Shown: in pieces, positions 26,451 to 59,908 of the stretch
Layout of the letters: every line of letters starts with the position of its first letter
Numbering within the stretch: position 1 is the first letter of the stretch
Origin: a phage
Length of the DNA stretch: 64,000 bases
Sequence record: PZ229304.1
Strand: one strand, 5' to 3'
Translations under genes and position numbers: made by a program
Notes under the pieces: model-generated
What the model was told of the DNA's origin: nothing
Database searches by the model: none
Seen by the model: only the letters and a program-made list of their open reading frames with translations

Positions 26451-26527
26451 TCTTTCCTCCTCTTTAATGCGGAGGACAATCCTCCGCTCTATGTCTTATA
26501 CTATAAACTGTTTTTAAAGAAAGTCAA

Positions 26528-49195: not shown

Positions 49196-49303
49196 TGATA
49201 ATCATTCTCATTTGTAAATGAGAATCATTATCATTTAAGTATGTAAGTGATAATCATTCTCATTAAGAGAATGAGAATCATTAGCAAATGAGAATTTTTC
49301 TCA
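49196..49303. promoter_or_regulatory. Cluster of five Fur-box-like 15-mers (TGATAATCATTCTCA and variants)
   Basis: Sites at 49196-49210, 49219-49233, 49248-49262, 49272-49286, 49289-49303; best sites match the 7-1-7 Fur consensus TGATAATnATTATCA at 14/15. Confidence 0.5.
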
Positions 49304-49567: not shown

Positions 49568-49834
49568 TTATTTTTTGTTTTCTTGCCAGGATAGGACACC
49601 TAACCAAAAATACATGTCGCCCCGCGCCCCTGGTGGGATCTTGCTTTCCCCGCCGCCACTGCAAGCCCATAGATAACCATTAGCGAACGGATCAAAGTTT
49701 TCTATTTCTTCCACCTTATGATCGCCCAGGTTGAGAACGGTTTCGACCTTTAAGCCCGTTGCGCTTGCTACCTGGTGCACCGTGCCGCCTTGCCAGCCCA
49801 ATGAGTGCATAAGGTGTAAAGTAGTATTTGTCAT
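49568..49834 (-). CDS. Hypothetical protein in GC-rich island (low confidence)
   Basis: 88-aa ORF with weak RBS; surrounding 49310-50050 is visibly more GC-rich than the rest of the window. Confidence 0.25.
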   Translation of the reverse strand: MTNTTLHLMHSLGWQGGTVHQVASATGLKVETVLNLGDHKVEEIENFDPFANGYLWACSGGGESKIPPGARGDMYFWLGVLSWQENKK

Positions 49835-49945
49835 GGTATCGCCCTTTCTTTGATGTGCGCCCTGGTTGGCGCGGTAGAAAGATAATAGCCGTTTCCTTTA
49901 TAGATAGCAAGCAAAAAAAGAAATGAAAAAAGATTAAAAAAATGG

Positions 49946-49974
49946 TTGACGTTCCTCACCTGGTAGCGTAATAT
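49946..49974 (+). promoter_or_regulatory. Sigma70-like promoter (TTGACG-17-TAATAT)
   Basis: Near-consensus hexamers with 17-nt spacer. Confidence 0.4.
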
Positions 49975-50206
49975 TCATCTTGTCGAGGGGGGCAAGGCAC
50001 AACGACAATAAACAATAGGCGGGTGCAATGCATGACGGGCAAAGGTGAGGATCTCCACAATCCACCGTCACAATAACATTACTTATAAAAGGTTGATAAC
50101 GATGATCAAGAAAGAAAATAGCTTGACGGTTGGAACGATTAACGCTATCATTCTCGCCGTTCCATTTTGGATTGTAGTGGCGGTTGTTATTTTCTAAAAA
50201 ATATTC

Positions 50207-50265
50207 TTGACAACGTTTTTTAATCTGATAAGATGTATCACATAGGGCGGCAATAGTGCCGCTCA
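50207..50265 (+). promoter_or_regulatory. Early promoter cassette: TTGACA-16-TAAGAT, conserved CACATAGGGCGG and imperfect 5' hairpin
   Basis: Exact -35; conserved post--10 motif; hairpin GGCGGCA-ATAG-TGCCGC(T)C; upstream of gene 50287. Confidence 0.5.
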
Positions 50266-50286
50266 TAACAGAAGAGAGAAATAATC

Positions 50287-50559
50287 ATGGCATCATATAG
50301 CGCATCAATGATCGTAGCTGGCATCACTGGTAAACCTATGCGCGGTGGCGGATCTTTCGCTAACATCAATATTGATGGACGTTTATCCCTGGACGCAGCG
50401 ATCACCGTGGCACGGGAAACGTTTAAAAAAGAATGTAATTTCAATAAACAAGATTATCTCGGTTTCGCTATTGAAAAAACCGCGCGATTTGTGGATTATA
50501 AAAGCCCGAAAATGATCGACACTACACTAAAAGCGCAAGATGTAGCGTTTTTGCTTTAA
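50287..50559 (+). CDS. Hypothetical early protein
   Basis: 90-aa ORF following promoter cassette. Confidence 0.45.
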   Translation: MASYSASMIVAGITGKPMRGGGSFANINIDGRLSLDAAITVARETFKKECNFNKQDYLGFAIEKTARFVDYKSPKMIDTTLKAQDVAFLL

Positions 50560-50562
50560 GGC

Positions 50563-50623
50563 TTGACACTGAAAAATACTTTGTTAATATATACCACATA
50601 AGGCGGGGAAATGGTTTCCCGCC
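50563..50623 (+). promoter_or_regulatory. Early promoter cassette: TTGACA-16-TAATAT + CACATAAGGCGGGG + hairpin GGCGGGGAAA-TGG-TTTCCCGCC
   Basis: Consensus-like hexamers; 9-bp stem hairpin at 50603-50623. Confidence 0.6.
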
Positions 50624-50645
50624 AAATCAAAGAAAGGGTAATGCA

Positions 50646-51008
50646 ATGAGCAAGCAAATCAATACTATCATGTTTAATCTGGTATCTTTCCGCGATGACG
50701 TGAAAAACCTTTCGCGTGGTGCAGTGGATGCACGGATCGAAAGCTATCGCACACAGATCGCAACGTTACCGCTGAAACGTGATCAACATGCCGCTAATAT
50801 GATGCTTGATGCTATGATTAAAAAGATGATTCAATGTGATCTTACTCTGGCTTATGAATATGCTGGCGATCTCTTTGTAACGTATAACAAGCCCGTTCCA
50901 GGTATGAGCACCACGGAAGAATTGCATGCCTTAAATCTGCGACAAGATGCATGGGATAACATGCGCCGTGTTATGGTATGGGTAGAAAGCGGCAAAATTT
51001 ACGCGTAA
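50646..51008 (+). CDS. Hypothetical early protein
   Basis: 120-aa ORF. Confidence 0.45.
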   Translation: MSKQINTIMFNLVSFRDDVKNLSRGAVDARIESYRTQIATLPLKRDQHAANMMLDAMIKKMIQCDLTLAYEYAGDLFVTYNKPVPGMSTTEELHALNLRQDAWDNMRRVMVWVESGKIYA

Positions 51009-51012
51009 AGAT

Positions 51013-51065
51013 TGACATTACACGAAAACCTGATAAGCTATCTTAAAGCGGGAATAGTTCCCGCT
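51013..51065 (+). promoter_or_regulatory. Early promoter cassette (TTGACA, weak -10) + hairpin GCGGGAA-TAG-TTCCCGC
   Basis: Exact -35 at 51013-51018; hairpin 51048-51064. Confidence 0.4.
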
Positions 51066-51083
51066 TACATAGGATAAAACTTT

Positions 51084-51230
51084 ATGAAACAATATGTAAT
51101 GAGTATTCATACCAAAAACGGCGCTACTGTTACGACTCCGGCACGGTTTGCACTTGTAAACCGTTGCAAGAGACTAAAACGAGAGCTAAAAAATAACCGT
51201 GCAACCGGTTTTAAACGCTGGGGAGGATAA
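51084..51230 (+). CDS. Small basic hypothetical protein (48 aa)
   Basis: ATG downstream of promoter cassette; below ORF-track cutoff. Confidence 0.3.
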   Translation: MKQYVMSIHTKNGATVTTPARFALVNRCKRLKRELKNNRATGFKRWGG

Positions 51231-51232
51231 TC

Positions 51233-51493
51233 TTGTTTTTTCTAAAAGTTTTTGATAATGTGATCGCTTTTGAACATGCTACGACGTTCGACCTGGCGAG
51301 ATACGCTATCAGGTTTAAAGATAATGTTTATCCCCGTGCTGGCGGCGGTTACACTATTTTTAATCATCGTAACGCTCAATTAACGGATATAACTAATCCA
51401 GGCCCTGGAGTGTATCGCATAGGCTGGCTACCGTCAAAAGACGCGGCAAGCATGTTTAAGGTATGTAAACTACTAACAGAAGAGGCGAACTAA
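51233..51493 (+). CDS. Hypothetical early protein (TTG start)
   Basis: 86-aa ORF; TTG 5 nt after GGGAGGA. Confidence 0.4.
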   Translation: MFFLKVFDNVIAFEHATTFDLARYAIRFKDNVYPRAGGGYTIFNHRNAQLTDITNPGPGVYRIGWLPSKDAASMFKVCKLLTEEAN

Positions 51494-51494
51494 C

Positions 51495-52049
51495 ATGGGG
51501 CGTGAGTATGTGATCCAGTCCTGGGTAAAGCATGACGCTAATGATCCGCGCATAATACCAGATGACATGATCGATCACATGGTAGGGTATAGCGGGGAGC
51601 AGATAGGAAATCGAGCGGCAAAGAGCAACGGCAACACAAAGGCGCGATCCGTTCGCCCTGGTTGGCTGGCAAATGGTAACGCTGACATTGCAAGCGCCGC
51701 AGATCCAAGCGATGACGCTAAAAATAATCCCTTGTACAGCATTGATCCGGCTTTTAAGGTGTTGGAAGAGTATCCCGCTAAATTAGCCGCACTAGATAAG
51801 GCATACGAAGAAAAGCGCATGGCATGGACTGTATACAACACCGCTAAAATGGTGCTAGATGCAAAATTGATTAAAGCCCAGGAGAAGATCAATAAACTTG
51901 TTACCATAGCGCAAGAGGAAGACCAGGACGACCAGGAGGAAGAGGAAGAAATCATGCCTATCCTGGAAGAGGAAGAGATCCAGCCATACATGCCGACGGA
52001 AGAGGAAAAAAGACAAGCCCTAAAAAATTACGAAAATTGTATTGTGTAA
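51495..52049 (+). CDS. Hypothetical early protein with acidic C-terminal region
   Basis: 184 aa; EEDQDDQEEEEE stretch. Confidence 0.45.
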   Translation: MGREYVIQSWVKHDANDPRIIPDDMIDHMVGYSGEQIGNRAAKSNGNTKARSVRPGWLANGNADIASAADPSDDAKNNPLYSIDPAFKVLEEYPAKLAALDKAYEEKRMAWTVYNTAKMVLDAKLIKAQEKINKLVTIAQEEDQDDQEEEEEIMPILEEEEIQPYMPTEEEKRQALKNYENCIV

Positions 52050-52052
52050 GGC

Positions 52053-52109
52053 TTGACATATGCAAACAAGCCCCGTAATATGTACCACATAAAGCGGGGC
52101 AACGCCCCA
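52053..52109 (+). promoter_or_regulatory. Early promoter cassette: TTGACA-17-TAATAT + CACATAAAGCGGGG + short hairpin
   Basis: Consensus-like hexamers; GGGGC-AAC-GCCCC hairpin. Confidence 0.5.
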
Positions 52110-52130
52110 TAAGGTGAAATAAAAAATCAC

Positions 52131-52158
52131 TTGACACCTGAAATCAGTAAGCTATAAT
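52131..52158 (+). promoter_or_regulatory. Perfect-consensus sigma70 promoter (TTGACA-16-TATAAT), tandem to the cassette 75 bp upstream
   Basis: Both hexamers identical to consensus with 16-nt spacer; 37 nt upstream of ATG at 52196. Confidence 0.6.
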
Positions 52159-52195
52159 GCTTATATAGATTGAAACATTACTAAGGAATAAAAGC

Positions 52196-52375
52196 ATGGC
52201 TATTATTGCAAAGACTGAGATCGTAGGTTTAGATTCTATCATCCTGGCATATGAGGAAGCTATAGAAATGTATGTGGTTTCCTATGGTGATTATATCCGT
52301 GAATATAAATCTATTGATCTAGCTTTTGAATGTTATATTCGCCAGGTAAATAAAGCATACGATGATTATCGTTAA
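52196..52375 (+). CDS. Small hypothetical protein (59 aa)
   Basis: ATG after AAGGAATAAAAGC; just below ORF-track cutoff. Confidence 0.35.
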   Translation: MAIIAKTEIVGLDSIILAYEEAIEMYVVSYGDYIREYKSIDLAFECYIRQVNKAYDDYR

Positions 52376-52470
52376 AAGTTTTAGTCTTGTGCTATTGACA
52401 ACGAACGATAGTACAAGCATAATAACTTTTATCGGGAATACTCCTAACTAATCAAAAGAGATTAAAGACT

Positions 52471-52836
52471 ATGGCTAAAAATATCAATGTTTCTGCTTAT
52501 GCTACCCTGGCTAACACTGCTAAAATTGAACTATCCAGCATTGAAGCGGTACATATTAGCGCCCGTCGCTGGTTTCAAAAGTCTTATGGTAATACTTATT
52601 TCTCTTTGATGGTTGACGTTGAGATCGGCGGTAAACTGATTGAAGTCGTTAACGTTCCGTTTCAATATGGCTACGGGGATCATTTTGATACCGTTGCCCT
52701 AGAAGAGTTTAGCAAGGTTATCAACCTGGAAGGTAAAGACTTTTCAAATTATGCTTACCTTTCCCGCTTTTGCCGTGATAATGGGATCGCTGTATACAGT
52801 CATGCAAGCGATGTTAAACGTAAAAAAGATTTATAA
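52471..52836 (+). CDS. Hypothetical early protein
   Basis: 121-aa ORF with RBS. Confidence 0.45.
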   Translation: MAKNINVSAYATLANTAKIELSSIEAVHISARRWFQKSYGNTYFSLMVDVEIGGKLIEVVNVPFQYGYGDHFDTVALEEFSKVINLEGKDFSNYAYLSRFCRDNGIAVYSHASDVKRKKDL

Positions 52837-52842
52837 AAAGCA

Positions 52843-52901
52843 TTGACAGCACGAATAAAAAGCATATAATACTTATATCGAGAGCGGGAATAGTTCCCGC
52901 C
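52843..52901 (+). promoter_or_regulatory. Early promoter cassette: TTGACA-16-TATAAT + hairpin GCGGGAA-TAG-TTCCCGC
   Basis: Consensus hexamers; hairpin 52884-52900. Confidence 0.6.
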
Positions 52902-52924
52902 TCACTGAAAAAGAGATTAACATC

Positions 52925-53164
52925 ATGGCTAAATCTAAAATGTACAACGGTCACAAAAATAAAACTCATTGGAATGTAAGCCTTTGGATCAACAATGATG
53001 AAGGTTTTTATAATCTTGCACGTGAATTTATTGCAGCTAACACCAATAAGAATGACGCAGCGCGTGATATGATGCTATTTCTTGAAAGTATGGATCAAGA
53101 TAAAACGCCAGACGGTTACAAGTTCAGTAAAACTGCAATCCGCGCCGCGATGGTTGGAATGTAA
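52925..53164 (+). CDS. Hypothetical early protein
   Basis: 79-aa ORF. Confidence 0.45.
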   Translation: MAKSKMYNGHKNKTHWNVSLWINNDEGFYNLAREFIAANTNKNDAARDMMLFLESMDQDKTPDGYKFSKTAIRAAMVGM

Positions 53165-53259
53165 AGGAGACATAAAAATGAAACATCGTTCGACCTATCT
53201 CACAAAACGTTTTAGCTTAGATCATAAATTGGGCTATTACGGAAGAAATAGAAAATAAT

Positions 53260-53319
53260 TTGACAACGTTTTAAATTAGTGTAATATATATCACATAGGG
53301 CGGGAAATGGTTTCCCGCC
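53260..53319 (+). promoter_or_regulatory. Early promoter cassette: TTGACA-16-TAATAT + CACATAGGGCGGG + hairpin GGCGGGAAA-TGG-TTTCCCGCC
   Basis: Consensus-like hexamers; 9-bp stem at 53299-53319. Confidence 0.6.
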
Positions 53320-53341
53320 AAATCAAAGAAAGGTTATCATT

Positions 53342-53569
53342 ATGGCTATCGTTATTGTTCGCGTATCCGGTACGGTTGGAATCTCTCAGGTAGTAGCAGT
53401 TATCACAGAGAAGAAAGGAGATGATCTTCACTCCTCCTTGAATAGCTGGGCGGTCGCTAATTTTGGGCAATGGTCGAGCGTTGAGTACATCGAATCCTAC
53501 CAGGTGCCAACGATTAGCCTGACCGATCTGAATGTTGATCGCTTGTTGTGCCTGGATCAATTAAATTAA
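53342..53569 (+). CDS. Hypothetical early protein
   Basis: 75-aa ORF. Confidence 0.45.
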   Translation: MAIVIVRVSGTVGISQVVAVITEKKGDDLHSSLNSWAVANFGQWSSVEYIESYQVPTISLTDLNVDRLLCLDQLN

Positions 53570-53577
53570 AAATAATA

Positions 53578-53635
53578 TTGACAAGATAACTAAAATCAGT
53601 AAAATGTAATGCATAGGGCGGCACTATTGCCGCCC
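53578..53635 (+). promoter_or_regulatory. Early promoter cassette: TTGACA-16-TAAAAT + GCATAGGGCGG + hairpin GGGCGGCA-CTAT-TGCCGCCC
   Basis: Perfect 8-bp stem at 53616-53635. Confidence 0.55.
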
Positions 53636-53655
53636 TAGTGAGAGAGATTATCAAA

Positions 53656-53871
53656 ATGGCTAATATCCGCACACTGTTAAAAAATGCAAGTCAAGTTTTA
53701 TTTTCAGATGACGAATATTTTAATAAAGATATTACAGGCGTGAAAAATTTAAAAGACGTGAAGGATGTTATCGGTATCCGTGGATCTTTACGTAAAGGTG
53801 ACATATACGGTAACAAGGTGCAGTATAAACTGTCAAAAGATTATGATTTTACTTTGACAATTATTTCATAA
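53656..53871 (+). CDS. Hypothetical early protein
   Basis: Start set at MANIRTLL downstream of the cassette. Confidence 0.4.
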   Translation: MANIRTLLKNASQVLFSDDEYFNKDITGVKNLKDVKDVIGIRGSLRKGDIYGNKVQYKLSKDYDFTLTIIS

Positions 53872-53877
53872 AACTAC

Positions 53878-53938
53878 TTGCAAACCTGGTAAAATAAAGT
53901 AAACTATATTCATTAAGGCGGTGGAATAGCCAACCGCC
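53878..53938 (+). promoter_or_regulatory. Early promoter cassette variant: TTGCAA-16-TAAACT + imperfect hairpin GGCGGT...ACCGCC
   Basis: -35 variant; hairpin 53917-53938. Confidence 0.4.
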
Positions 53939-53962
53939 TAACAAAGAGAAGAGGAAAACATC

Positions 53963-54133
53963 ATGATCACTTTCGCTACCCGTGAAGCCGCTCGCAACGT
54001 TGCACGTAAAGTTAACGCCGCCAACCTGGGCGCTACGCTTAAAGCCCCGGTAAAAGATGAATCAGGAAAATGGATCTTCCCTGGTCTGCGTCACGCTGAT
54101 AAGCTGGGAACATTAACGTTAAAAAATAAATAA
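53963..54133 (+). CDS. Small hypothetical protein (56 aa)
   Basis: ATG after AGAGGAAAACATC; below ORF-track cutoff. Confidence 0.3.
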   Translation: MITFATREAARNVARKVNAANLGATLKAPVKDESGKWIFPGLRHADKLGTLTLKNK

Positions 54134-54140
54134 TATTCGC

Positions 54141-54199
54141 TTGACAGTAGCATCATTTATAAGTAAAGTAACAACAACGGCGGGAAATGGTTTCCCGCC
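54141..54199 (+). promoter_or_regulatory. Early promoter cassette: TTGACA-17-TAAAGT + hairpin GGCGGGAAA-TGG-TTTCCCGCC
   Basis: Hairpin 54179-54199 identical to that at 53299-53319. Confidence 0.55.
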
Positions 54200-54219
54200 A
54201 TCAATAAAGAGATAAGATT

Positions 54220-54579
54220 ATGAAATCAGCAAAAGCAATTAAAACTTACATTTTGTCGGCTATTTCTTTTGATGGTACTACAACCGAAAAAGAAAAAATC
54301 ACCGAACTGATGCGCCGTTTTAATTCTGAATACTGGTATCCCGATAATCAAAAACGTTACAATTATAACGTGATCAAGGCGATAGCCTCATGGTTACAAG
54401 GTTTACCGTCAGAAATCAATATTGCTTTTGATTATAACGAGATCGATCACTTGTTAATTGAATGGAAGTACATAAAAGAAACAAGCAAAGAAACAACCGT
54501 TACCCGTGAGCGGGAAAATTATTGGTTATATATTGCAAGCATGATCGTAATCCTGGCAAAACAGCATAACGTGGCGTAA
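54220..54579 (+). CDS. Hypothetical early protein
   Basis: 119-aa ORF. Confidence 0.45.
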   Translation: MKSAKAIKTYILSAISFDGTTTEKEKITELMRRFNSEYWYPDNQKRYNYNVIKAIASWLQGLPSEINIAFDYNEIDHLLIEWKYIKETSKETTVTRERENYWLYIASMIVILAKQHNVA

Positions 54580-54594
54580 TTAAGAGGAAGAAAC

Positions 54595-54732
54595 ATGAAC
54601 GCATCACAGCAGATCGAAAAATTCAACCGCAGCAAGGCGCGTAAAGATTGGAACGAAGAGATCACCAAAAAAGGTGACAAGCGGAACAAAACAAAGAGAG
54701 ATCGCAGCACAAAAAGATACTGGAACGAATAA
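54595..54732 (+). CDS. Small basic hypothetical protein (45 aa)
   Basis: ATG after AAGAGGAAG; Lys/Arg-rich. Confidence 0.3.
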   Translation: MNASQQIEKFNRSKARKDWNEEITKKGDKRNKTKRDRSTKRYWNE

Positions 54733-54735
54733 CAA

Positions 54736-54762
54736 AAAAGGGCGCAATAAGCGCCCTTTTAG
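54736..54762 (+). terminator. Rho-independent terminator (AAGGGCGC-AATAA-GCGCCCTT + TT)
   Basis: 8-bp GC stem directly after the stop at 54730-54732. Confidence 0.5.
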
Positions 54763-54850
54763 CTTATATAGAGGCTTGTTACCCATAGGCAATGGTAACG
54801 CCAGGGCAAGCCTATAAATCAACGTTAGACGGCTTTACAGGAGCTTTAAA

Positions 54851-55033
54851 ATGAGATTAGAAGAAATAAGCAAGGCACTAGCCCAGGGGCAAAGGTTAAA
54901 CGCCCGTTATCGTGATCAATATGGTTTCATAACTAGCGGCGTGATCCTGGGGATTGAAGACAATAAGATTTTTATTGACACGTTGAAAAACGTTGTATAT
55001 AGTGACAATATAATCTCAATAAAACATATATGA
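54851..55033 (+). CDS. Hypothetical early protein
   Basis: 60-aa ORF. Confidence 0.4.
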   Translation: MRLEEISKALAQGQRLNARYRDQYGFITSGVILGIEDNKIFIDTLKNVVYSDNIISIKHI

Positions 55034-55041
55034 GGCAAGAA

Positions 55042-55443
55042 ATGAAAAAATTATTGATCGCTGGTTTACTCTCTTTTGGCATGGTTGGAACATCTAGCGC
55101 GGCGATATCCTCCACAGTAGCAGAATTAAGCGCCGTTGATGCAATGGAAAACGTCATGCTTATTAACAATGCGATCCCCGATGAAATCATGGAGGATTCA
55201 CACATGATCGCTTATGGTGCTGTTACACAACTAACGGCAAAAATAGATAAATCTATTGTTAATGGCTTAAATGAAGATGTACCATGTGAAATTATTACAA
55301 GTGTGCTGACTACTCAAAATTTTACGCCGTGGTTAAAAAGTATTCAAAAAGTACACAGTACAGCCGCAGATCGTAGCAATGAAAAACTAGTGTCAGCACT
55401 TGCAACGTATACCCTGGCAAAATGCACCGAGATAAAAGATTGA
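55042..55443 (+). CDS. Secreted hypothetical protein
   Basis: Start set at MKKLLIAGLLSFGMVGTSSAA (signal-peptide-like). Confidence 0.45.
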   Translation: MKKLLIAGLLSFGMVGTSSAAISSTVAELSAVDAMENVMLINNAIPDEIMEDSHMIAYGAVTQLTAKIDKSIVNGLNEDVPCEIITSVLTTQNFTPWLKSIQKVHSTAADRSNEKLVSALATYTLAKCTEIKD

Positions 55444-55466
55444 CAACATAGAAAGCACGTTATAAG
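55440..55466 (+). promoter_or_regulatory. Sigma70-like promoter (TTGACA-15-TATAAG), no 5' hairpin
   Basis: Exact -35; upstream of gene 55491. Confidence 0.35.
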
Positions 55467-55490
55467 ATACACACAACAAAGGAGAACTAC

Positions 55491-55787
55491 ATGAACGGCA
55501 TAGCTAAAACGTTTTTTCTTTTTTCTGGTGTAAATGATCCATCAATAAAAGTCGATAGTGTAAAAGAAAACAATACTATCACAGCTAAATTGTATCAAGA
55601 TGAAACAAATAACGTGCTAATCATTAATCTTAAAGAAATAACAAAAGGTTATTATGCTATTGCTTACCATGCGATTTATCATGCTGGTACTAGTGAGGAA
55701 GTGCAAACAAGCAACAACGAAAGCGCGGCGCTACCTGGTGATCTGGTGCTGGGCGTTATCAGTTTAATTGTCAATGATTTTTTTTAA
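55491..55787 (+). CDS. Hypothetical early protein
   Basis: 98-aa ORF with AAGGAG RBS. Confidence 0.45.
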   Translation: MNGIAKTFFLFSGVNDPSIKVDSVKENNTITAKLYQDETNNVLIINLKEITKGYYAIAYHAIYHAGTSEEVQTSNNESAALPGDLVLGVISLIVNDFF

Positions 55788-56052
55788 GGAGTAAAACCAT
55801 GCCCTATTTACATTTATTTTTCGGTATCTTATTGACGGGATCTTTTTTCTTCTGTATGCTTGTTTCTATTGTAAACCACGTTTTAAGACATTAAGGAAAC
55901 AGCATGAAAATTATTCCCGTACAATATAGCGTAATAAATCCAGCATACGAGGAAGGAAGGAAAACAAGCATGGCTTTATGTTGTATTACTACTATAGCCA
56001 TGTTGTTATACATTGTGTTTTAATAGGTTTTATAGTTGTACGCTTTAAAGGC

Positions 56053-56081
56053 TTGACAATTTTTTGTTATGCTTTAAACTA
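56053..56081 (+). promoter_or_regulatory. Sigma70-like promoter (TTGACA, weak -10)
   Basis: Exact -35 at 56053-56058. Confidence 0.35.
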
Positions 56082-56123
56082 TATCTTGAAAACGGCAAAG
56101 GCCGCAAACAAAAGGGTAAAATT

Positions 56124-56447
56124 ATGAAATCTGTGATCGGTGTTTATTTGGATAACTCTGATTTTTTCTATCATCGCGCTCGTTTCCTTGATGCGATTGA
56201 AATGATAGAATCAGGCTTTAAAGAGTATCGCCTTGCACATGATGACCTGGAAGCATTACAGGGCAATAGTGTTTTTACATTGCAAGCGAAAGCACTATGT
56301 AAAAGCCGGATCGACATTGCGAGCAAAAAGATAGAACGCGGCATGTCCTGGTTGCGCACCGCAGAAATCAACATGGGGCAATGGCACGGCGAAAACTTAG
56401 AAAATAAACATACTTTTGTCAATGTAGAAAATATTGAAGATTATTGA
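56124..56447 (+). CDS. Hypothetical early protein
   Basis: Start set at MKSVIGVY. Confidence 0.4.
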   Translation: MKSVIGVYLDNSDFFYHRARFLDAIEMIESGFKEYRLAHDDLEALQGNSVFTLQAKALCKSRIDIASKKIERGMSWLRTAEINMGQWHGENLENKHTFVNVENIEDY

Positions 56448-56510
56448 TTGACAGCACACCTGATAAGTAGTATATTGTATCTCATAGAGCGGGGAAATGG
56501 TTTCCCCGCC
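56448..56510 (+). promoter_or_regulatory. Early promoter cassette: TTGACA-17-TATATT + CTCATAGAGCGGGG + hairpin GCGGGGAAA-TGG-TTTCCCCGC
   Basis: 9-bp stem at 56489-56509. Confidence 0.55.
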
Positions 56511-56529
56511 TTAAAAGAAGAGATAAGCT

Positions 56530-56814
56530 ATGAAGATCACAAAAGCACTTTCCAACTATGCAGCACGTCGCGGCTTATGTTTAACCGTTGAAAACCTGGG
56601 GAAAGAAGATTTTTTGTGCTTTTGGGAGCTTGAGAATGATAATGAGTGGATCTTCTCTTATTCTATCTGCGAAGATCAAAACGGTTGTTTATTAACCTGG
56701 CGCGGTAATATCTATCTACCGGAAGAAATCAAAGAAGAATTGCCAGGCACGATCATGACTGAGAAACAGCTTAAGGAAGTGATCAATTTTGTAGGGCAAA
56801 ACATTAAAAAATAA
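56530..56814 (+). CDS. Hypothetical early protein
   Basis: 94-aa ORF. Confidence 0.45.
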   Translation: MKITKALSNYAARRGLCLTVENLGKEDFLCFWELENDNEWIFSYSICEDQNGCLLTWRGNIYLPEEIKEELPGTIMTEKQLKEVINFVGQNIKK

Positions 56815-56815
56815 T

Positions 56816-56875
56816 TTGACACCAGGCAAACAACGTAGTAAAGTTTATCACATAGGGCGGGAAATGGTTTCCCGC
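56816..56875 (+). promoter_or_regulatory. Early promoter cassette: TTGACA-17-TAAAGT + CACATAGGGCGGG + hairpin GCGGGAAA-TGG-TTTCCCGC
   Basis: Hairpin 56857-56875. Confidence 0.55.
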
Positions 56876-56897
56876 TCACAACAAAAGAGAACAAATC

Positions 56898-57068
56898 ATG
56901 ATCCCGACTATGTTTTACGTATCGCGCAAAGGTCACAATATTTTTTGGTCTGAAGATTTAAATGAAGCCATGACGTTTGCCCGTGATCGTGTTGCTATCG
57001 GTGGCGTTAACATTACTGTAACCGATGAAAACGGCATTGAATACTATAACGGCGACGATGAAGAGTAA
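56898..57068 (+). CDS. Small hypothetical protein (56 aa)
   Basis: ATG downstream of cassette; below ORF-track cutoff. Confidence 0.3.
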   Translation: MIPTMFYVSRKGHNIFWSEDLNEAMTFARDRVAIGGVNITVTDENGIEYYNGDDEE

Positions 57069-57115
57069 TTAATGAGGCGGGGGAGTATTCCCCGCCGTCA
57101 ATAAAGAGGTAAATC

Positions 57116-57385
57116 ATGAAAATATCATTTGACGTTGCAATCAAGGCCATCGAATCCGGTTACACCCTGGTAAAAGATGATAAGGCTAAAATAGTGCATC
57201 ATGTTAACAAGGAAACAGGCGAAAGCATGATCACATATAAAGCCGCCTACTTTCTCCAATCAGTAGCAGATCCGCGCGTACAGCGCCAGGTCACGGCGGC
57301 TATTGCTAAAAAATTATGTGCTTTACAGGGCACAAGTTTTAACGAGATCCCGCCGTGTTTTGACTGGTCGAGCTTGAAAAAATAG
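57116..57385 (+). CDS. Hypothetical early protein
   Basis: 89-aa ORF preceded by hairpin GGCGGGGGA-GTA-TTCCCCGCC (57077-57097) and AAGAGG RBS. Confidence 0.45.
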   Translation: MKISFDVAIKAIESGYTLVKDDKAKIVHHVNKETGESMITYKAAYFLQSVADPRVQRQVTAAIAKKLCALQGTSFNEIPPCFDWSSLKK

Positions 57386-57386
57386 T

Positions 57387-57448
57387 TTGACAATATGCGG
57401 TTATCTGGTAAAGTGTACCACGTAGGGCGGGGCAATAAGGCAACGCCC
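57387..57448 (+). promoter_or_regulatory. Early promoter cassette: TTGACA-16-TAAAGT + CACGTAGGGCGGGG + imperfect hairpin
   Basis: Conserved post--10 motif; GC-rich inverted repeat 57425-57448. Confidence 0.45.
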
Positions 57449-57466
57449 ACTAATGAGGGTAAAATC

Positions 57467-57571
57467 ATGTTAGAGAAAATTTTCACGGTTGTAGTAGTGG
57501 GCCTGGCGTTATCGGTTGGATTGGTTGCAACTATGGCTAACATGATCCTATCTTCCCACGGTATTGGATAA
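57467..57571 (+). CDS. Small membrane peptide (34 aa)
   Basis: ATG after GAGGGTAAAATC; hydrophobic (VVVGLALSVGLVATMANMIL). Confidence 0.25.
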   Translation: MLEKIFTVVVVGLALSVGLVATMANMILSSHGIG

Positions 57572-57581
57572 GGTGAATCAA

Positions 57582-57815
57582 ATGATCACGAATAAGACAG
57601 GTAAAACAGAATTTTTACGCGGCTTGCAAATAGGTAAACCTGAAATCTGGCATTGCACTAAAACACCACGTGACGAAATGAAAGATTTCACCGCTACTTT
57701 ACAACGTGTTAAAATATCTATCACACAGAAAAAAGCCTTGTTAGTAGTAGAAAACGAGATCCCGCAAACCAGATCGGGAATGATTTACATTTTACCCGTA
57801 ACGGTCACGGCGTAG
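57582..57815 (+). CDS. Hypothetical early protein
   Basis: Start set at MITNKTG (AAGGTG RBS) within ORF 57564..57815. Confidence 0.4.
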   Translation: MITNKTGKTEFLRGLQIGKPEIWHCTKTPRDEMKDFTATLQRVKISITQKKALLVVENEIPQTRSGMIYILPVTVTA

Positions 57816-57943
57816 GCTTTTGGGATCGCCCTGAAATATACACTACTAACACCGCCAACCGCCTAACAAATGCGGCTAAATTAATGCCATCGGTGCATGC
57901 TTACATTGGTGAAGATAATTTGATTTATATTGAATAAAAAGTA

Positions 57944-58003
57944 TTGACACCGATCCCCCAATATGTTACTATTTACCACGTAGGCGGGAAATGGTTTCCC
58001 GCC
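57944..58003 (+). promoter_or_regulatory. Early promoter cassette: TTGACA-17-TACTAT + CACGTAGGCGGG + hairpin GGCGGGAAA-TGG-TTTCCCGCC
   Basis: Hairpin 57983-58003. Confidence 0.55.
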
Positions 58004-58026
58004 AGGTAATCAAAAAGGTAAATACT

Positions 58027-58416
58027 ATGCGCAACCTGGTTTCTGTTTCTAACGTTGAAAAATTCCAATCTTTACAGGGTATCGTTAACAACGTAGCGCC
58101 TTTTTTAGTCAATGGCTTGATTGCAAAGATGAAGAATAAACATCATGCCGCATGGTCTGCTTACTGCTTTGACAATGATGAAAAAGCGGCTGAAATGATG
58201 TTAAATATGCTGTTAGACAGTGTAGAATCATCTTTACCGGAAAACATCGCAGAAGAGATCACCTATCGTTATAATATGGCGATCACTTACCAGGAGGTTG
58301 CGCAATTTAATATGATGGACGATGACGAACAACAGGATCAGGAAATATTCTGGGAGTATGCGGATCGTCAATCGGCTTTTGATGAAAAGTTAGCGATGTA
58401 TTATAACGAATATTAA
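58027..58416 (+). CDS. Hypothetical early protein (acidic C-terminus)
   Basis: Start set at MRNLVS; the ORF-track ATG at 57991 lies inside the hairpin loop. Confidence 0.45.
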   Translation: MRNLVSVSNVEKFQSLQGIVNNVAPFLVNGLIAKMKNKHHAAWSAYCFDNDEKAAEMMLNMLLDSVESSLPENIAEEITYRYNMAITYQEVAQFNMMDDDEQQDQEIFWEYADRQSAFDEKLAMYYNEY

Positions 58417-58429
58417 TACACGGTAAAAG

Positions 58430-58458
58430 AAAGGGGCGCACTAAGCGCCCTTTTTTGT
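58430..58458 (+). terminator. Rho-independent terminator (GGGCGC-ACTAA-GCGCCC + TTTTTT)
   Basis: GC stem followed by six T residues, 14 nt after stop. Confidence 0.6.
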
Positions 58459-58801
58459 ATTCTTTTTTCACAATGGAAGCGACACGTAAAGAATAGGCGT
58501 AAAGGTGGCGTAAAACCATCTAAAACCGACTGTAACCGCTTAAACAAGGTAGGAATGATTAATCACCTTACCAGGATGAAAAAGCTGTTATAAAGCTATA
58601 TAGGGCGTTTAAAGCACATAGGAAATAATTTGCTTTTTATCTTGCCTTTTATTCTGCTTTTGATTATTATTATGGAACGGGCGGCACCTGGGAACAGGGG
58701 AAGATAATCACCGGACGACCCCGCTATATATTGATAGCTAACATCTATCAAACAACAAAACATCAAAGGAATAAACTATCAAATCTTTACAATCTCATCT
58801 A

Positions 58802-58830
58802 TTGACCGGTAAATCATAGCAGTTTAATAT
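58802..58830 (+). promoter_or_regulatory. Sigma70-like promoter (TTGACC-17-TAATAT)
   Basis: Near-consensus hexamers upstream of gene 58879. Confidence 0.4.
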
Positions 58831-58878
58831 TGTTTTTAGAGGGTAGAACATACCCAAAACGAAAACAGGAAAAAGAAA

Positions 58879-59115
58879 ATGAAAGAAGTCATGATCCTCA
58901 AAAAATCACCTATTTTACGTGGTGGCTTTATCGCTTACTCTGATGATCTGTTAATTGCAACGGTTGCAAAAATACTAAAATCAGAAGAGGATAGTAAAAA
59001 CGGCGTTTATCGTATCTGTTTCACCCGTGGGAAATTGCAAGGCAAGATCGCCTATGCTTTTGATTTACAAGATGTAAATGATAAAATCTGCGCTGTTATT
59101 GATTATGCAAAATAA
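58879..59115 (+). CDS. Hypothetical early protein
   Basis: 78-aa ORF. Confidence 0.45.
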   Translation: MKEVMILKKSPILRGGFIAYSDDLLIATVAKILKSEEDSKNGVYRICFTRGKLQGKIAYAFDLQDVNDKICAVIDYAK

Positions 59116-59127
59116 TTAACTTTCTTA

Positions 59128-59156
59128 TTGACACCGGATCACGCTTACATTATTAT
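59128..59156 (+). promoter_or_regulatory. Sigma70-like promoter (TTGACA-17-TATTAT) followed by conserved CACGTAGGGC
   Basis: Consensus-like hexamers; conserved post--10 element but no GGCGGG hairpin. Confidence 0.5.
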
Positions 59157-59202
59157 TTATCACGTAGGGCAAATCATTTTAAACGGTAAACGAGGAATCA
59201 CC

Positions 59203-59586
59203 ATGAGCAATATCATCAACCTGGCGGCTACTGTAAACGGTAAAGATTTTAACGGCGCTGTAGATCGTGATCCTATGTGGTGCTTATCCGTGTTTAAAGG
59301 CGATCTGGTTGAAGTTAGAACAACCGAAGGTTATAGCGACGATTATAAATGCGAGATCCATTTACACAACTGGTACACGGGTAAAACTTATGCGCTGAAT
59401 CATGCGTTTATCGGCAAGGTTGAATATAGAGAAATGATCGACGAAGAAACGGGGCAAGATTTTAGCGATTATGTTTATATCCGTTCCGAGACATTAGCAG
59501 AACGTTTGATCGAGAAAATGAAAGCAAAAAATAAAATTAATTTAGCTCATTGGATTGATATAACAAACGATCCAGCTTATAAGTAA
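59203..59586 (+). CDS. Hypothetical early protein
   Basis: Start set at MSNIINL (GAGGA RBS) within ORF 59128..59586. Confidence 0.45.
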   Translation: MSNIINLAATVNGKDFNGAVDRDPMWCLSVFKGDLVEVRTTEGYSDDYKCEIHLHNWYTGKTYALNHAFIGKVEYREMIDEETGQDFSDYVYIRSETLAERLIEKMKAKNKINLAHWIDITNDPAYK

Positions 59587-59599
59587 ATGACACTTCACA

Positions 59600-59629
59600 C
59601 CAGGGCGCACAAAGCGCCCTTTCTTTTTA
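59600..59629 (+). terminator. Rho-independent terminator (AGGGCGC-ACAAA-GCGCCCT + TTCTTTTT)
   Basis: 7-bp GC stem and T-rich tail 14 nt after stop; closes the early-gene block. Confidence 0.6.
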
Positions 59630-59835
59630 CCTAAATAAAGATGATAGCTTTTACCTATCAAAAACGTTCACCGAAAAAAGTGAATAGATCGCGGTATCGA
59701 GCTAATCAAGGAGCAGATGAACAACCATACCATGAAGATCATAAGGCGCTTACAGCGTGTTTTAGACCGCTTATTTTTAATTTCTTCATGCAACTATTTG
59801 GCAAAAACAGCCTTTTTCTTGTCTTTCCTCTTAAA

Positions 59836-59908
59836 TGATAATCATTCTTATTTATAGCTGATTATTTATGCAATAAACTGCATAATGCAATAATGATAAT
59901 CATTCTTA
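59836..59908. promoter_or_regulatory. Two Fur-box-like sites (TGATAATCATTCTTA) 58 bp apart
   Basis: 59836-59850 and 59894-59908; second site extends to ATAATGATAATCATTCTTA (16/19 to classic Fur box GATAATGATAATCATTATC). Confidence 0.45.

What the first reader, a model, noticed from the sequence alone, without database searches (positions are those of the whole stretch)
50207..59156. Array of about 15 modular early-promoter cassettes with a conserved 5' hairpin (PeSL-like organisation)
Almost every small gene between 50.2 and 59.6 kb is preceded by TTGACA, a 16-17 nt spacer, a TAnnnT -10, a conserved CAC(A/G)TAGGGCGGG element and a hairpin whose commonest form is GGCGGGAAA-TGG-TTTCCCGCC (identical copies at 53299, 54179 and 57983; variants elsewhere), then an RBS. 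This implies host sigma70 drives the block and that each mRNA starts with the same stable stem-loop, which could stabilise the transcript, bind a regulator, or act as a recombination module. Similar promoter-stem-loop cassettes have been described in hyperplastic regions of T4-type phages, as I recall.
Basis: seen in the sequence. Interest (0 to 1): 0.6.

Follow-up and report, generated by a model that had tools for sequence, protein, structure and literature searches.

The report
Promoter–hairpin gene cassettes in a coliphage
A 10-kb block of small unknown-function genes in a phi92-type E. coli phage is built from repeated units (host-type promoter, short GC hairpin, ribosome site, gene) that recombine with one another, much like the PeSL cassettes of T4-type phages but with the hairpin placed inside the transcript.

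Summary
Between 49.9 and 59.2 kb the + strand carries 18 near-consensus sigma70-type promoters, against 2.5±1.5 in shuffles and 1 on the other strand. Twelve are followed 6-14 nt (mode 10-11) after the -10 by a GC hairpin anchored by GCGG…CCGC. Three more units are partial.

The window is a Justusliebigvirus (phi92/phAPEC8 group). In a complete relative the element is confined to this block, plus one copy elsewhere.

Stems covary, the position relative to the -10 is fixed, and no T-tract follows on the sense strand. Predicted 5' leaders fold better than shuffles (z -2.4 to -4.5).

Indel, replacement and reordering junctions among relatives fall in the cassettes, with 14-70 bp of shared sequence at five junctions. 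Hairpin types are swapped at orthologous sites.

The same promoter→hairpin→RBS layout, with different stem sequences, occurs in an rV5-like phage and a jumbo phage.

Best reading: a PeSL-like modular early-gene array whose hairpin is the 5' end of each mRNA, acting as a stabiliser or context insulator. That function is inferred, and start sites are unmapped.

GenBank records already mark the element, as "PHIRE promoter" or as an opposite-strand terminator. I rate it a new variant of a known kind, of moderate interest.

The parts
50207..50264 (+). Cassette: -35 TTGACA 50207, -10 TAAGAT 50229-50234, hairpin GGGCGGCA-atag-TGCCGCTC 50245-50264. Gene ATG at 50287.
   Evidence: z -3.57
50563..50623 (+). 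Cassette: TTGACA-16-TAATAT, hairpin GGCGGGGAA-atgg-TTTCCCGCC 50602-50623. ATG at 50646.
   Evidence: z -2.61
51012..51066 (+). Cassette: TTGACA-16-TAAGCT, hairpin AAGCGGGAA-tag-TTCCCGCTT 51046-51066. ATG at 51084.
   Evidence: z -3.87
52053..52108 (+). Cassette: TTGACA-17-TAATAT, short hairpin GGGGC-aac-GCCCC 52096-52108. It is followed directly by a second promoter.
52131..52158 (+). Consensus promoter TTGACA-16-TATAAT without hairpin. ATG at 52196.
52395..52423 (+). Promoter TTGACA-17-CATAAT without GC hairpin. ATG at 52471.
52843..52900 (+). Cassette: TTGACA-16-TATAAT, hairpin GCGGGAA-tag-TTCCCGC 52884-52900. ATG at 52925.
   Evidence: z -2.39
53260..53319 (+). Canonical cassette: TTGACA-16-TAATAT, ATATCACATAG, hairpin GGCGGGAAA-tgg-TTTCCCGCC 53299-53319. 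ATG at 53342.
   Evidence: z -2.63
53578..53637 (+). Cassette: TTGACA-16-TAAAAT, perfect 10-bp hairpin TAGGGCGGCA-ctat-TGCCGCCCTA 53614-53637. The loop is inverted relative to relatives. ATG at 53656.
   Evidence: z -3.79
53878..53938 (+). Partial cassette: weak promoter TTGCAA-16-TAAACT, bulged hairpin GGCGGTGG-aatag-CCAACCGCC 53917-53938. ATG at 53963.
54141..54199 (+). Cassette: TTGACA-17-TAAAGT, hairpin 54179-54199 (exact canonical copy). ATG at 54220.
   Evidence: z -3.51
54736..54760 (.). Bidirectional intrinsic terminator AAAAGGGCGC-aataa-GCGCCCTTTT. It belongs to a 3-copy terminator family and is distinct from the cassette hairpins.
   Evidence: D7
54975..55003 (+). Promoter TTGACA-17-TATAGT, no hairpin.
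55440..55468 (+). Promoter TTGACA-17-TAAGAT, no hairpin. Its -35 overlaps the stop codon of the upstream gene.
56053..56105 (+). Promoter TTGACA-16-TAAACT with only a weak 4-bp hairpin CGGC-aaag-GCCG. ATG at 56124.
56448..56509 (+). Cassette: TTGACA-17-TATATT, hairpin GCGGGGAAA-tgg-TTTCCCCGC 56489-56509. ATG at 56530.
   Evidence: z -3.83
56816..56877 (+). Cassette: TTGACA-17-TAAAGT, hairpin GGGCGGGAAA-tgg-TTTCCCGCTC 56855-56877. ATG at 56898. The hairpin type differs from the orthologous site in ESCO8 and muut.
   Evidence: z -3.78
57076..57096 (+). Promoterless hairpin GGCGGGGGA-gta-TTCCCCGCC between the stop codon at 57068 and the RBS of the gene at 57116.
57387..57448 (+). Cassette: TTGACA-16-TAAAGT, CACGTAG, interrupted hairpin GGGCG…CGCCC 57425-57448. 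ATG at 57468. Junction of a 217-bp insertion in Paula, ESCO8 and muut.
   Evidence: z -3.33
57944..58003 (+). Cassette: TTGACA-17-TACTAT, hairpin 57983-58003 (exact canonical copy). ATG at 58027.
   Evidence: z -2.55
58428..58456 (.). Bidirectional intrinsic terminator (GGGGCGCACTAAGCGCCCC with A and T tracts).
58802..58855 (+). Promoter TTGACC-17-TAATAT with AU-richer hairpin GGGTA-gaaca-TACCC. ATG at 58879. This module is replaced by another gene in Paula, muut and SD2.
59128..59168 (+). Promoter TTGACA-17-TATTAT plus TTATCACGTAGGGC, without a hairpin. It looks like the product of a deletion between two CACGTAGG motifs, because ESCO8 keeps a hairpin and an extra gene here. ATG at 59203.
59602..59620 (+). 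Intrinsic terminator closing the block.
26469..26527 (-). The only cassette outside the block: TTGACT-16-TATAGT, GACATAGA, hairpin GCGGAGGA-ttg-TCCTCCGC. It is in sense orientation to a - strand gene (Paula_0136, tellurium-resistance-like).
   Evidence: (z -4.54)

Best explanation
The block is an array of self-contained gene cassettes. Each unit has five parts:
- an A/T-rich upstream stretch;
- a near-consensus sigma70 promoter read by host RNA polymerase;
- a start site probably at the conserved purine 8 nt after the -10;
- 4-5 unpaired nucleotides, then a 5-10 bp GC hairpin with an invariant GCGG…CCGC clamp, a variable inner stem, and mostly an (A)UGG or (A)UAG loop;
- a 17-22 nt A-rich unstructured leader with the Shine-Dalgarno sequence, then a small ORF of unknown function.

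Shown here: the promoters and hairpins exist far above chance, in one orientation and at a fixed spacing. The hairpins are not intrinsic terminators by sequence. The cassettes recombine with one another, so genes are inserted, deleted, replaced and reordered between related phages at these elements.

Inferred: the genes are early. The hairpin is the 5' end of each mRNA. There it would slow 5'-end-dependent decay and shield the ribosome site from upstream sequence, both in primary transcripts and in read-through transcripts cut in the AU-rich promoter RNA just upstream. Every gene would then be expressed the same way wherever the cassette lands.
For: Promoters and motifs in the window:
- 18 sites scoring >=10/12 on the + strand against 1 on the - strand; shuffles give 2.5±1.5.
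- GCGG-N6-16-CCGC occurs at 13 loci in 64 kb, 12 of them in the block. The motif [AG]TA[AG][AG]GCGG occurs only in sense orientation.

Genome-wide distribution: in the complete Paula genome, 11 of 13 motif copies lie in the block and one lies before one other gene. No RNA polymerase is annotated.

Geometry across 7 Stephanstirmvirinae loci:
- 81 promoter-plus-hairpin cassettes with 30 distinct hairpin cores.
- The stem starts 10 nt (35 cases) or 11 nt (17 cases) after the -10.
- Pair types vary at every stem position.
- There are 19 G·T against 5 A·C pairs.
- After the -10, position 7 is C in 46/59 distinct cassettes, position 8 a purine in 56/59, position 9 T in 53/59. The hairpin ends mostly 17-22 nt before the ATG.

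Folding: twelve predicted leaders fold with the hairpin 3-5 nt from the 5' end and a mostly open SD, z -2.4 to -4.5.

Termination: no cassette hairpin has a T-tail on the + strand, whereas three true terminators do.

Other lineages: the same order and spacing, with unrelated stem sequences, occur in rV5-like Gotham and jumbo phage UB.

Recombination:
- 15 indel or replacement events against 4 close relatives, with 17 of 23 end points inside cassette intervals that make up 20% of the block (P = 5e-8).
- BLAST segments overlap by 14-70 bp at five junctions.
- Hairpin type is swapped at an orthologous site, and gene order differs from Phapecoctavirus.

Background: stabilising 5' stem-loops in ompA and papA appear as references 92-95 in the review PMC3997798. 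The T7 gene 10 leader parallel is from my own knowledge.
Against: - No transcript data exist for this phage group in the literature I could search. Start sites and early timing are therefore inferred from sequence.
- With 4-5 unpaired 5' nucleotides the hairpin may not block RppH or RNase E fully. RppH needs only 2-3 unpaired nucleotides; this was shown for the Bacillus enzyme (PMC3997798). Its extension to E. coli is from my own knowledge.
- Seven to nine promoters in the block manage without a GC hairpin, and one hairpin has no promoter, so the two parts are separable.
- Sense and antisense folding energies are similar for many copies. The strand that folds is only weakly indicated, by the G·T excess.
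- The fixed spacing could partly reflect common descent of copies rather than selection.
- Cassettes make up 64% of the non-coding DNA in the block. Enrichment of junctions over 'any intergenic site' is therefore modest.
Confidence: 0.6

Rival explanations
1. The stem-loop is a terminator or attenuator for transcription arriving from upstream promoters, as proposed for PeSLs. It would keep each gene's expression independent and prevent build-up of read-through.
For: A PeSL stem-loop lowered lacZ expression as much as rrnB T1 (PMC2839356). The block has up to 11 promoters in a row with no true terminator between them. One hairpin (57076) sits directly after a stop codon without a promoter.
Against: None of the hairpins is followed by a T-tract on the sense strand; the tails are A-rich. 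The hairpin lies downstream of its own promoter in 81 of 81 cassettes, so a real terminator would also stop its own transcript. True terminators in the same block are built differently and come before the next promoter. That E. coli intrinsic termination needs the U-tract is established knowledge.
Confidence: 0.12
2. The element is an operator. The invariant GCGG clamp and conserved (A)URG loop would be recognised, as RNA or as DNA, by a phage or host protein that controls the whole set of genes together. Possible actions are shut-off, targeted decay or antitermination.
For: The 5' GCGG is invariant across 27 distinct variants. Loops are (A)TGG or (A)TAG in 20 of 31 cores while inner stems change. 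The motif rTAGGGCGG is conserved next to the stem. Similar AAATGRTT loop contexts occur in the jumbo phage UB.
Against: rV5-like cassettes have unrelated loops: AAC, GACG, AAAG. One window copy has the loop inverted without loss of the cassette. No candidate binding protein was identified. Loop conservation can be explained by recent copying among cassettes.
Confidence: 0.12
3. The palindromes have no RNA role. They persist as DNA-level recombination or template-switch hot spots, or as selfish repeats that spread together with the promoters.
For: Junction homology lies within the cassettes. The left arm of a hairpin was used in a microhomology deletion in SD2. At 53614 the loop is inverted and a G·T pair corrected, the signature of quasipalindrome template switching on DNA.
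Against: The position relative to the -10 and to the start codon is fixed in three phage lineages with unrelated stem sequences. Pairing is maintained through many different stems. G·T pairs exceed A·C pairs 19 to 5.
Confidence: 0.1
4. The conserved 20-mer rTAGGGCGGCAATGGTGCCG is a phage-specific promoter, as annotated from PHIRE in the phAPEC8 GenBank record.
For: The phAPEC8 record JX561091 labels exactly these elements 'putative promoter determined with PHIRE'. From my own knowledge, the motif loosely resembles the T7-group core CACTATAGGG, which is also followed by a 5' stem-loop.
Against: PHIRE only reports over-represented 20-mers. Every copy sits 10-11 nt behind a near-perfect sigma70 -10. 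No phage RNA polymerase or sigma factor is annotated in the complete relative. The stem sequence varies freely, which a promoter would not tolerate.
Confidence: 0.03
5. The hairpins are terminators for antisense transcription, as annotated on the opposite strand in the phage Paula record.
For: Paula LR865361 marks 9 of them as terminators on the strand opposite to the genes. On that strand the hairpin is followed by the moderately T-rich complement of the -10 region. Two of 13 pass a T-tail criterion.
Against: Eleven of 13 fail the T-tail criterion. Only one strong promoter-like site points into the block on the - strand. Three bidirectional terminators already guard the block. The adjacent motif and fixed spacing tie the hairpin to the sense promoter.
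Confidence: 0.03

Closest known systems
PeSLs (promoter-early stem-loops) of T4-type phages RB49/phi1, T4/PST and KVP40/nt-1 (Arbiol et al. 2010, PMC2839356; Comeau et al. 2014, PMC4122927)
   Same: Both are repeated intergenic modules of about 100 bp. Each has an A/T-rich upstream region, a strong sigma70-like promoter, a GC stem-loop, and the SD and ATG of a small unknown-function gene. Both are concentrated in a variable region, and indels, replacements and gene displacement between close relatives have junctions in or next to the modules.
   Different: The host phage is not T4-like; it belongs to Stephanstirmvirinae. The stem-loop is always downstream of the -10, starting about +4 or +5, so it is transcribed from its own promoter. 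In published PeSLs it lies upstream of the promoter (T4/PST, nt-1) or mostly inside it (RB49/phi1). No T-tract follows the stem here, so terminator activity is doubtful. Mini-circles were not tested.
5'-terminal stabilising stem-loops of mRNAs (ompA and papA 5' UTRs; the phage T7 gene 10 leader). References 92-95 in PMC3997798; details from my own knowledge.
   Same: A stable hairpin sits within a few nucleotides of the predicted 5' end and is followed by an unstructured A-rich leader and the SD. The T7 class III leaders likewise start with a stem-loop directly after a conserved promoter.
   Different: Here the 5' end is predicted, not mapped. There are 4-5 unpaired nucleotides before the stem. 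The element is repeated before a dozen genes and also serves as recombination homology. A stabilising effect has not been tested.
Database annotations of the same element: 'putative promoter determined with PHIRE' in phAPEC8 (JX561091) and opposite-strand 'terminator' in phage Paula (LR865361)
   Same: These are the same sequences at the same places.
   Different: Neither annotation recognises a promoter-plus-hairpin unit. Both readings fit the sequence evidence poorly; see the rival explanations.
Phage N4 virion-RNA-polymerase hairpin promoters and lambdoid nut/boxB sites (considered from my own knowledge)
   Same: All are short hairpins with a 3-nt or small loop near the start of early transcripts.
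   Different: No virion or single-subunit RNA polymerase is annotated in the complete relative. The hairpin follows a sigma70 promoter. No N-like antiterminator or boxA was looked for, and terminators are few inside the block.

Membership tests
PeSL (promoter-early stem-loop cassette) | Strong sigma70-like promoter with an A/T-rich upstream region | tested here: met
   18 sites scoring >=10/12 on the + strand against 2.5±1.5 in shuffles. A-rich runs precede the -35 elements.
PeSL (promoter-early stem-loop cassette) | GC-rich stem-loop within the same intergenic module | tested here: met
   12 full cassettes plus 3 partial ones. Hairpins have 5-10 bp stems and the leaders give z -2.4 to -4.5.
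PeSL (promoter-early stem-loop cassette) | Stem-loop placed upstream of or within the promoter. [quoted passage not shown] | tested here: not met
   In 81 of 81 cassettes from 7 loci the stem starts 6-14 nt (mode 10-11) after the -10, beyond the usual start position.
PeSL (promoter-early stem-loop cassette) | Stem-loop acts as a transcription terminator or attenuator | not testable with these tools
   By sequence, no T-tail follows on the sense strand for any cassette hairpin. Activity needs an experiment.
PeSL (promoter-early stem-loop cassette) | Concentrated in a hyperplastic region next to small genes of unknown function | tested here: met
   In Paula, 11 of 13 genome-wide motif copies lie in the block. 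Ten of 10 proteins fall in PHROGs of unknown function, and 9 of 10 have no Pfam family.
PeSL (promoter-early stem-loop cassette) | Indel or replacement junctions between close relatives lie in the elements | tested here: met
   17 of 23 end points fall in cassette intervals (P = 5e-8 against whole-block length). BLAST segments overlap by 14-70 bp at 5 junctions. Enrichment over non-coding DNA alone is modest.
PeSL (promoter-early stem-loop cassette) | Excision as mini-circles by recombination between flanking elements | not testable with these tools
   This needs inverse PCR on infected cells or virion DNA.
PeSL (promoter-early stem-loop cassette) | Carried by a T4-type phage | tested here: not met
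   The window is 96-98% identical to Justusliebigvirus genomes (Stephanstirmvirinae).
5'-terminal stabilising mRNA stem-loop | Hairpin within a few nucleotides of the mapped 5' end | not testable with these tools
   Only predicted. C7-R8-T9 is conserved after the -10, which leaves 4-5 unpaired nucleotides.
5'-terminal stabilising mRNA stem-loop | Structure more stable than chance and maintained by compensating changes | tested here: met
   z -2.4 to -4.5 for 12 leaders. 30 distinct cores keep pairing with different pairs at every stem position.
5'-terminal stabilising mRNA stem-loop | Lengthens mRNA half-life | not testable with these tools
   This needs a rifampicin chase with stem mutants.
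Intrinsic (Rho-independent) terminator | GC hairpin followed by a T-rich tract on the transcribed strand | tested here: not met
   None of 13 hairpins meets this on the + strand and 2 of 13 on the - strand. The three genuine terminators (54736, 58428, 59602) do meet it.
Phage-polymerase promoter (PHIRE annotation; T7- or N4-like) | A phage-encoded RNA polymerase or sigma factor that could read it | tested here: not met
   None of the 309 annotated features of the complete Paula genome is an RNA polymerase. This rests on annotation, not on a profile search.

The most novel reading that the evidence does not exclude
The hairpin, with its invariant GCGG clamp and (A)URG loop, is a shared RNA operator. 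A phage-encoded or host RNA-binding protein would recognise the 5' end of every cassette mRNA and switch the whole set off or on together, for example by targeted decay or translational shut-off after the early phase. Because the operator travels with each cassette, newly acquired genes would be wired into the regulon at once. The cassettes would also move between unrelated coliphage families (Stephanstirmvirinae, Vequintavirinae, Asteriusvirus).
Probability: 0.12. Interest if true: 0.7.

Novelty: new variant of a known kind. Interest (0 to 1): 0.45.

Why it matters
If the reading is right, promoter-plus-stem-loop gene cassettes are not a peculiarity of T4-type phages. They would be a general way for large E. 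coli phages to carry, express and exchange small accessory genes, many of which are likely host-takeover or anti-defence functions.

The version here puts the hairpin at the start of the mRNA. That suggests a built-in 5' cap-like structure which makes expression independent of where the cassette lands.

There are also practical gains. The result corrects two conflicting database annotations of the same element. It gives compact, portable expression units for phage engineering. It marks the places where these therapeutic-candidate phages most often gain and lose genes.

Tried and rejected
Searches that found nothing:
- Rfam gave no family at gathering score in the whole window. Only weak, implausible sub-threshold hits appeared in 49.8-61.5 kb.
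- Literature searches for transcript maps or promoter studies of Phapecoctavirus, Justusliebigvirus or Vequintavirinae found none. The rV5 paper lists sigma70 promoters without comment on hairpins. The phAPEC8 genome paper is not held.
- The cassette has no match in 5,426 complete E. coli genomes, so a host origin is rejected.
- The exact 21-mer occurs in only two IMG/VR contigs, so the sequence is lineage-restricted.

Formal pair counting with the count of structure pairs was not done. MAFFT aligned the variants on the loop (A1) or on the invariant GCGG (A2), not in structural register, because stems differ in length. I tallied pairs from the loop outward in a script instead.

Sense-versus-antisense folding energies did not separate the strands cleanly. 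Only the G·T against A·C count leans towards the sense strand.

The opposite-strand terminator reading and the PHIRE promoter reading were examined and judged unlikely; see the rival explanations. A resemblance of CACrTAGGG plus 5' stem-loop to the T7-group promoter core and gene 10 leader, and of the 3-nt-loop hairpins to N4 promoters, was set aside. No phage RNA polymerase is annotated in a complete relative.

A conserved non-coding stretch at 58642-58735 was folded and is not more stable than shuffles (z -0.72).

Several fetched loci (L003-5, L007, L009, L010) never reached the script machine. Gotham was therefore read by eye, and muut and SD2 were fetched again.

Full report
**What the window is.** The region 50000-59700 is 96-98% identical to Justusliebigvirus genomes of the phi92/phAPEC8 group (Stephanstirmvirinae, about 146-149 kb myoviruses of E. 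coli), such as ESCO8, J-01 and Paula. In Paula's annotation the block corresponds to phi92 gp226-gp248. It begins at a divergent-promoter region and ends at a terminator, which is followed by about 1.7 kb of AT-rich non-coding DNA.

**Check of the observation.**
- The 21-mer GGCGGGAAATGGTTTCCCGCC is present exactly at 53299, 54179 and 57983. Copies with one or two mismatches lie at 56856 and 50603. No match is expected in shuffles.
- In 49800-59700, sigma70-like sites scoring at least 10 of 12 number 18 on the + strand and 1 on the - strand. Two hundred dinucleotide shuffles give 2.48±1.54, maximum 7.
- Twelve promoters are followed by a GC hairpin. Three further units are partial: a weak promoter with hairpin at 53878, a promoterless hairpin at 57076, and an AU-richer hairpin at 58802.
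- Seven to nine promoters have no GC hairpin or only a very weak one.
- GCGG-N6-16-CCGC palindromes occur at 13 loci in the 64 kb: 12 in the block and one at 26469.
- The adjoining motif [AG]TA[AG][AG]GCGG occurs 8 times on the + strand, all in the block. It occurs once on the - strand, at 26492 in front of a - strand gene.
- The repeat finder recovers the hairpin-plus-leader family (7-8 copies), the promoter-plus-motif family (5-7 copies), and a separate family of three true terminators.

**Distribution.** In the complete Paula genome the motif occurs 13 times. Eleven copies are in the block, all in sense orientation. One lies before the tellurium-resistance-like gene that matches window 26527, and one is a stray. 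Outside the block, strong promoter-like sites in the window are not followed by such hairpins, apart from 26527. A BLAST search with one cassette finds 409 places in 135 phage records, essentially all phi92/phAPEC8-type with a few rV5-type. It finds nothing in 5,426 E. coli genomes.

**Anatomy.** I compared seven loci: the window, Paula, ESCO8, muut, SD2, phAPEC8 and 536P1.
- They hold 81 promoter-plus-hairpin cassettes with 30 distinct hairpin cores.
- The first stem base lies 10 nt (35 cases) or 11 nt (17 cases) after the -10, range 6-14.
- The outer GCGG…CCGC is invariant. The inner stem differs in sequence and length, for example GAAA/TTTC, CA/TG, GGAA/TTCC, AGGA/TCCT and GGGC/GCCC, and every stem position shows several pair types.
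- G·T pairs outnumber A·C pairs 19 to 5.
- Loops are (A)TGG or (A)TAG in 20 of 31 cores.
- After the -10, position 7 is C in 46 of 59 distinct cassettes, position 8 is a purine in 56, and position 9 is T in 53. The hairpin ends mostly 17-22 nt before the ATG.
- E. coli RNA polymerase usually starts 7-8 nt after the -10, at a purine preceded by a pyrimidine (established knowledge). The transcript would therefore begin AUAG or GUAG, leaving about 4-5 unpaired nucleotides before the stem.
- Twelve predicted leaders fold with the hairpin 3-5 nt from the 5' end and a mostly unpaired Shine-Dalgarno region. Their z-scores against dinucleotide shuffles run from -2.4 to -4.5.

**Not terminators by sequence.** None of the cassette hairpins is followed by a T-rich tail on the + strand, and two of thirteen pass on the - strand. 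The three genuine terminators (54736, 58428, 59602) have A and T tracts and come before the next promoter, not after it.

**Existing annotations.** The phAPEC8 record labels rTAGGGCGGCAATGGTGCCG as 'putative promoter determined with PHIRE', directly 3' of 'host dependent promoter determined with MEME'. The Paula record labels the hairpins as terminators on the strand opposite to the genes. The repeat has therefore been noticed, but not as a promoter-hairpin unit. I found no paper on it for this phage group.

**Recombination.** BLAST of the block against four Justusliebigvirus relatives gives 15 insertion, deletion or replacement events.
- Seventeen of 23 end points fall inside cassette intervals (-35 to ATG+6), which are 20% of the block (binomial P = 5e-8).
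- Cassettes make up 64% of the non-coding DNA, so enrichment over intergenic space alone is modest.
- More telling, five junctions show overlapping alignment ends of 14-70 bp inside cassettes (at 52865-52879, 52864-52934, 53621/53890, 57377-57437 and 59154-59168). This is what recombination between cassettes predicts.
- One deletion in muut runs exactly from one -35 to another (49953|51012).
- The hairpinless promoter at 59128 looks like the product of a deletion between two CACGTAGG motifs, because ESCO8 still has the hairpin and an extra gene there.
- At one orthologous site the hairpin type differs: GGGCGGGAAA…TTTCCCGCTC in the window at 56816, against GGGCGGCA…TGCCGCTC in ESCO8 and muut.
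- Against Phapecoctavirus 536P1 the same genes occur in a different order.
- Genes of the block are also shared with rV5-like phages, jumbo phages and, for 64 bp, with 51-kb siphoviruses.

**Other lineages.**
- The rV5-like phage Gotham has the same order and spacing with other stems. Examples are TATACT-TAAACACACA-GGCGGGAA-aac-TTCCCGCC and TATATT-AAAACTCAA-GGGGGCAA-gacg-TTTGCCCCC. It also has promoterless intergenic hairpins (read by eye).
- The jumbo phage UB (Asteriusvirus) has TTG(A/C)AA-16-TATAAT, nnnTTACATCAAG, then GGGGAGAA-atga-TTCTCCCC, a leader and an ATG at six genes.
- The C-A-T at positions 7-9 after the -10 is kept in both lineages.
- The layout is therefore maintained with unrelated stems. 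This argues for a role tied to the transcript start rather than to one DNA sequence.

**Gene content.** Ten of ten proteins tested fall in PHROGs of unknown function. Nine of ten have no Pfam family. The exception, 59203-59586, belongs to Phage_30_8, the family of T4 gp30.8, with E = 5e-29.

**Interpretation.** The block is best read as an array of self-contained cassettes: host-type promoter, 5' hairpin, open A-rich leader with SD, and a small gene.
- Shown here: the elements, their orientation and spacing, structure conservation, the lack of terminator tails, and recombination at the cassettes.
- Inferred: early timing, the start site, and the function of the hairpin.
- My preferred mechanism has three parts:
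  - The hairpin forms the 5' end of each mRNA.
  - It slows 5'-end-dependent decay.
  - It keeps upstream RNA from pairing with the ribosome site.
- This would also apply to read-through transcripts cut in the AU-rich promoter RNA just upstream.
- The precedents are the ompA and papA 5' stem-loops (references in PMC3997798) and the T7 gene 10 leader (my own knowledge).
- Weak points are the 4-5 unpaired nucleotides, the promoters that lack hairpins, and the absence of any transcript data.
- Five rivals remain in play:
  - a PeSL-type attenuator;
  - a shared operator for a regulator;
  - a DNA-only recombination element;
  - a phage-specific promoter;
  - an antisense terminator.
- The report sections above weigh each of these.

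**Comparison with PeSLs.** The match is in kind: promoter plus stem-loop modules flanking small unknown genes in a plastic region, with junctions in the modules. The differences are three. The stem-loop is downstream of the -10 and transcribed, whereas published PeSLs have it upstream of or within the promoter. There is no T-tract. The phage family is different. I therefore file it as working like a PeSL array in genome dynamics, but as a distinct variant in architecture. It is of moderate interest, and higher if the cross-family spread and a 5'-end function are confirmed.

Noticed in passing
window 49191-49285; 59831-59907; 60767-60785; 60956-60986: Fur-box-like repeats (consensus GATAATGATAATCATTATC; the best copy, GCAAATGATAATCATTATC at 60767, has 2 mismatches) cluster in the two non-coding regions that flank the cassette block. 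There are 43 hits with <=5 mismatches against 6.9 in mononucleotide shuffles, though the AT-rich context inflates this. They could be iron-regulated operators or replication iterons.
   Followed up: partly
window 53614-53637: The loop is CTAT here where Paula, ESCO8 and SD2 have ATAG, its reverse complement. The G·T pair of the relatives is a G-C pair here, giving a perfect 10-bp palindrome. This is the pattern expected from template switching at a quasipalindrome.
   Followed up: partly
window 57764-57771: The window lacks about 235 bp that Paula, ESCO8 and muut have. The deletion has a 7-bp overlap at the junction and removes the end of one gene and the start of the next. It leaves a fused or truncated ORF (57593-57815), a probable pseudogene.
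   Followed up: partly
window 58642-58735; L007 7075-7160: A non-coding stretch behind a weak promoter (TTGCCT-17-TATTAT) contains GGCGGCACCTGGGAACAGGGGAAGATAATCACCGG. It resembles a stretch in the rV5-like phage Gotham (GGCAGGCACCTGGCGACGGGGGGAGACAATCACCGG). It has no Rfam hit, and its fold is not better than shuffles (z -0.72).
   Followed up: partly
window 54730-54760, 58424-58454, 59593-59623: The three intrinsic terminators of the block are copies of one family (GGGCGCAnnAAGCGCCC with flanking A and T tracts). The terminators are therefore repeated modules too (family D7).
   Followed up: no
window 59203-59586: The last gene of the block belongs to Pfam Phage_30_8, the family of T4 gp30.8 (E = 5e-29). 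It is the only protein of ten tested with a Pfam family.
   Followed up: no
window 52196, 52471, 52925, 53342, 53656: Five genes start with ATGGCTA(A/T). One deletion in muut and SD2 (52202|52471) joins two of these start codons through this 7-bp identity.
   Followed up: no
window 48969-49099: There is a tandem repeat of a 67-bp unit, two copies at 81% identity, just upstream of the divergent promoter region. muut annotates repeat_regions here.
   Followed up: no
window 56692-56755: A 64-bp stretch inside the gene 56530-56814 matches about 51-kb siphoviruses (swan01, tonijn, tiwna and others) at 83-85% identity. This hints at exchange of a gene fragment with an unrelated phage group.
   Followed up: no
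GenBank records MG0656xx (hits H47, H49, H50, H84, H85): About 20 records named 'Campylobacter phage' with host C. jejuni match this coliphage block or its cassettes at 82-87% identity. Their genome sizes are those of rV5-like or phi92-like phages. They look like mislabelled or contaminant genomes.
   Followed up: no
window 26469-26527 (- strand): A single cassette of the same family sits far from the block, in front of the gene that Paula annotates as a membrane-bound tellurium-resistance protein. It is conserved at the same place in Paula.
   Followed up: partly
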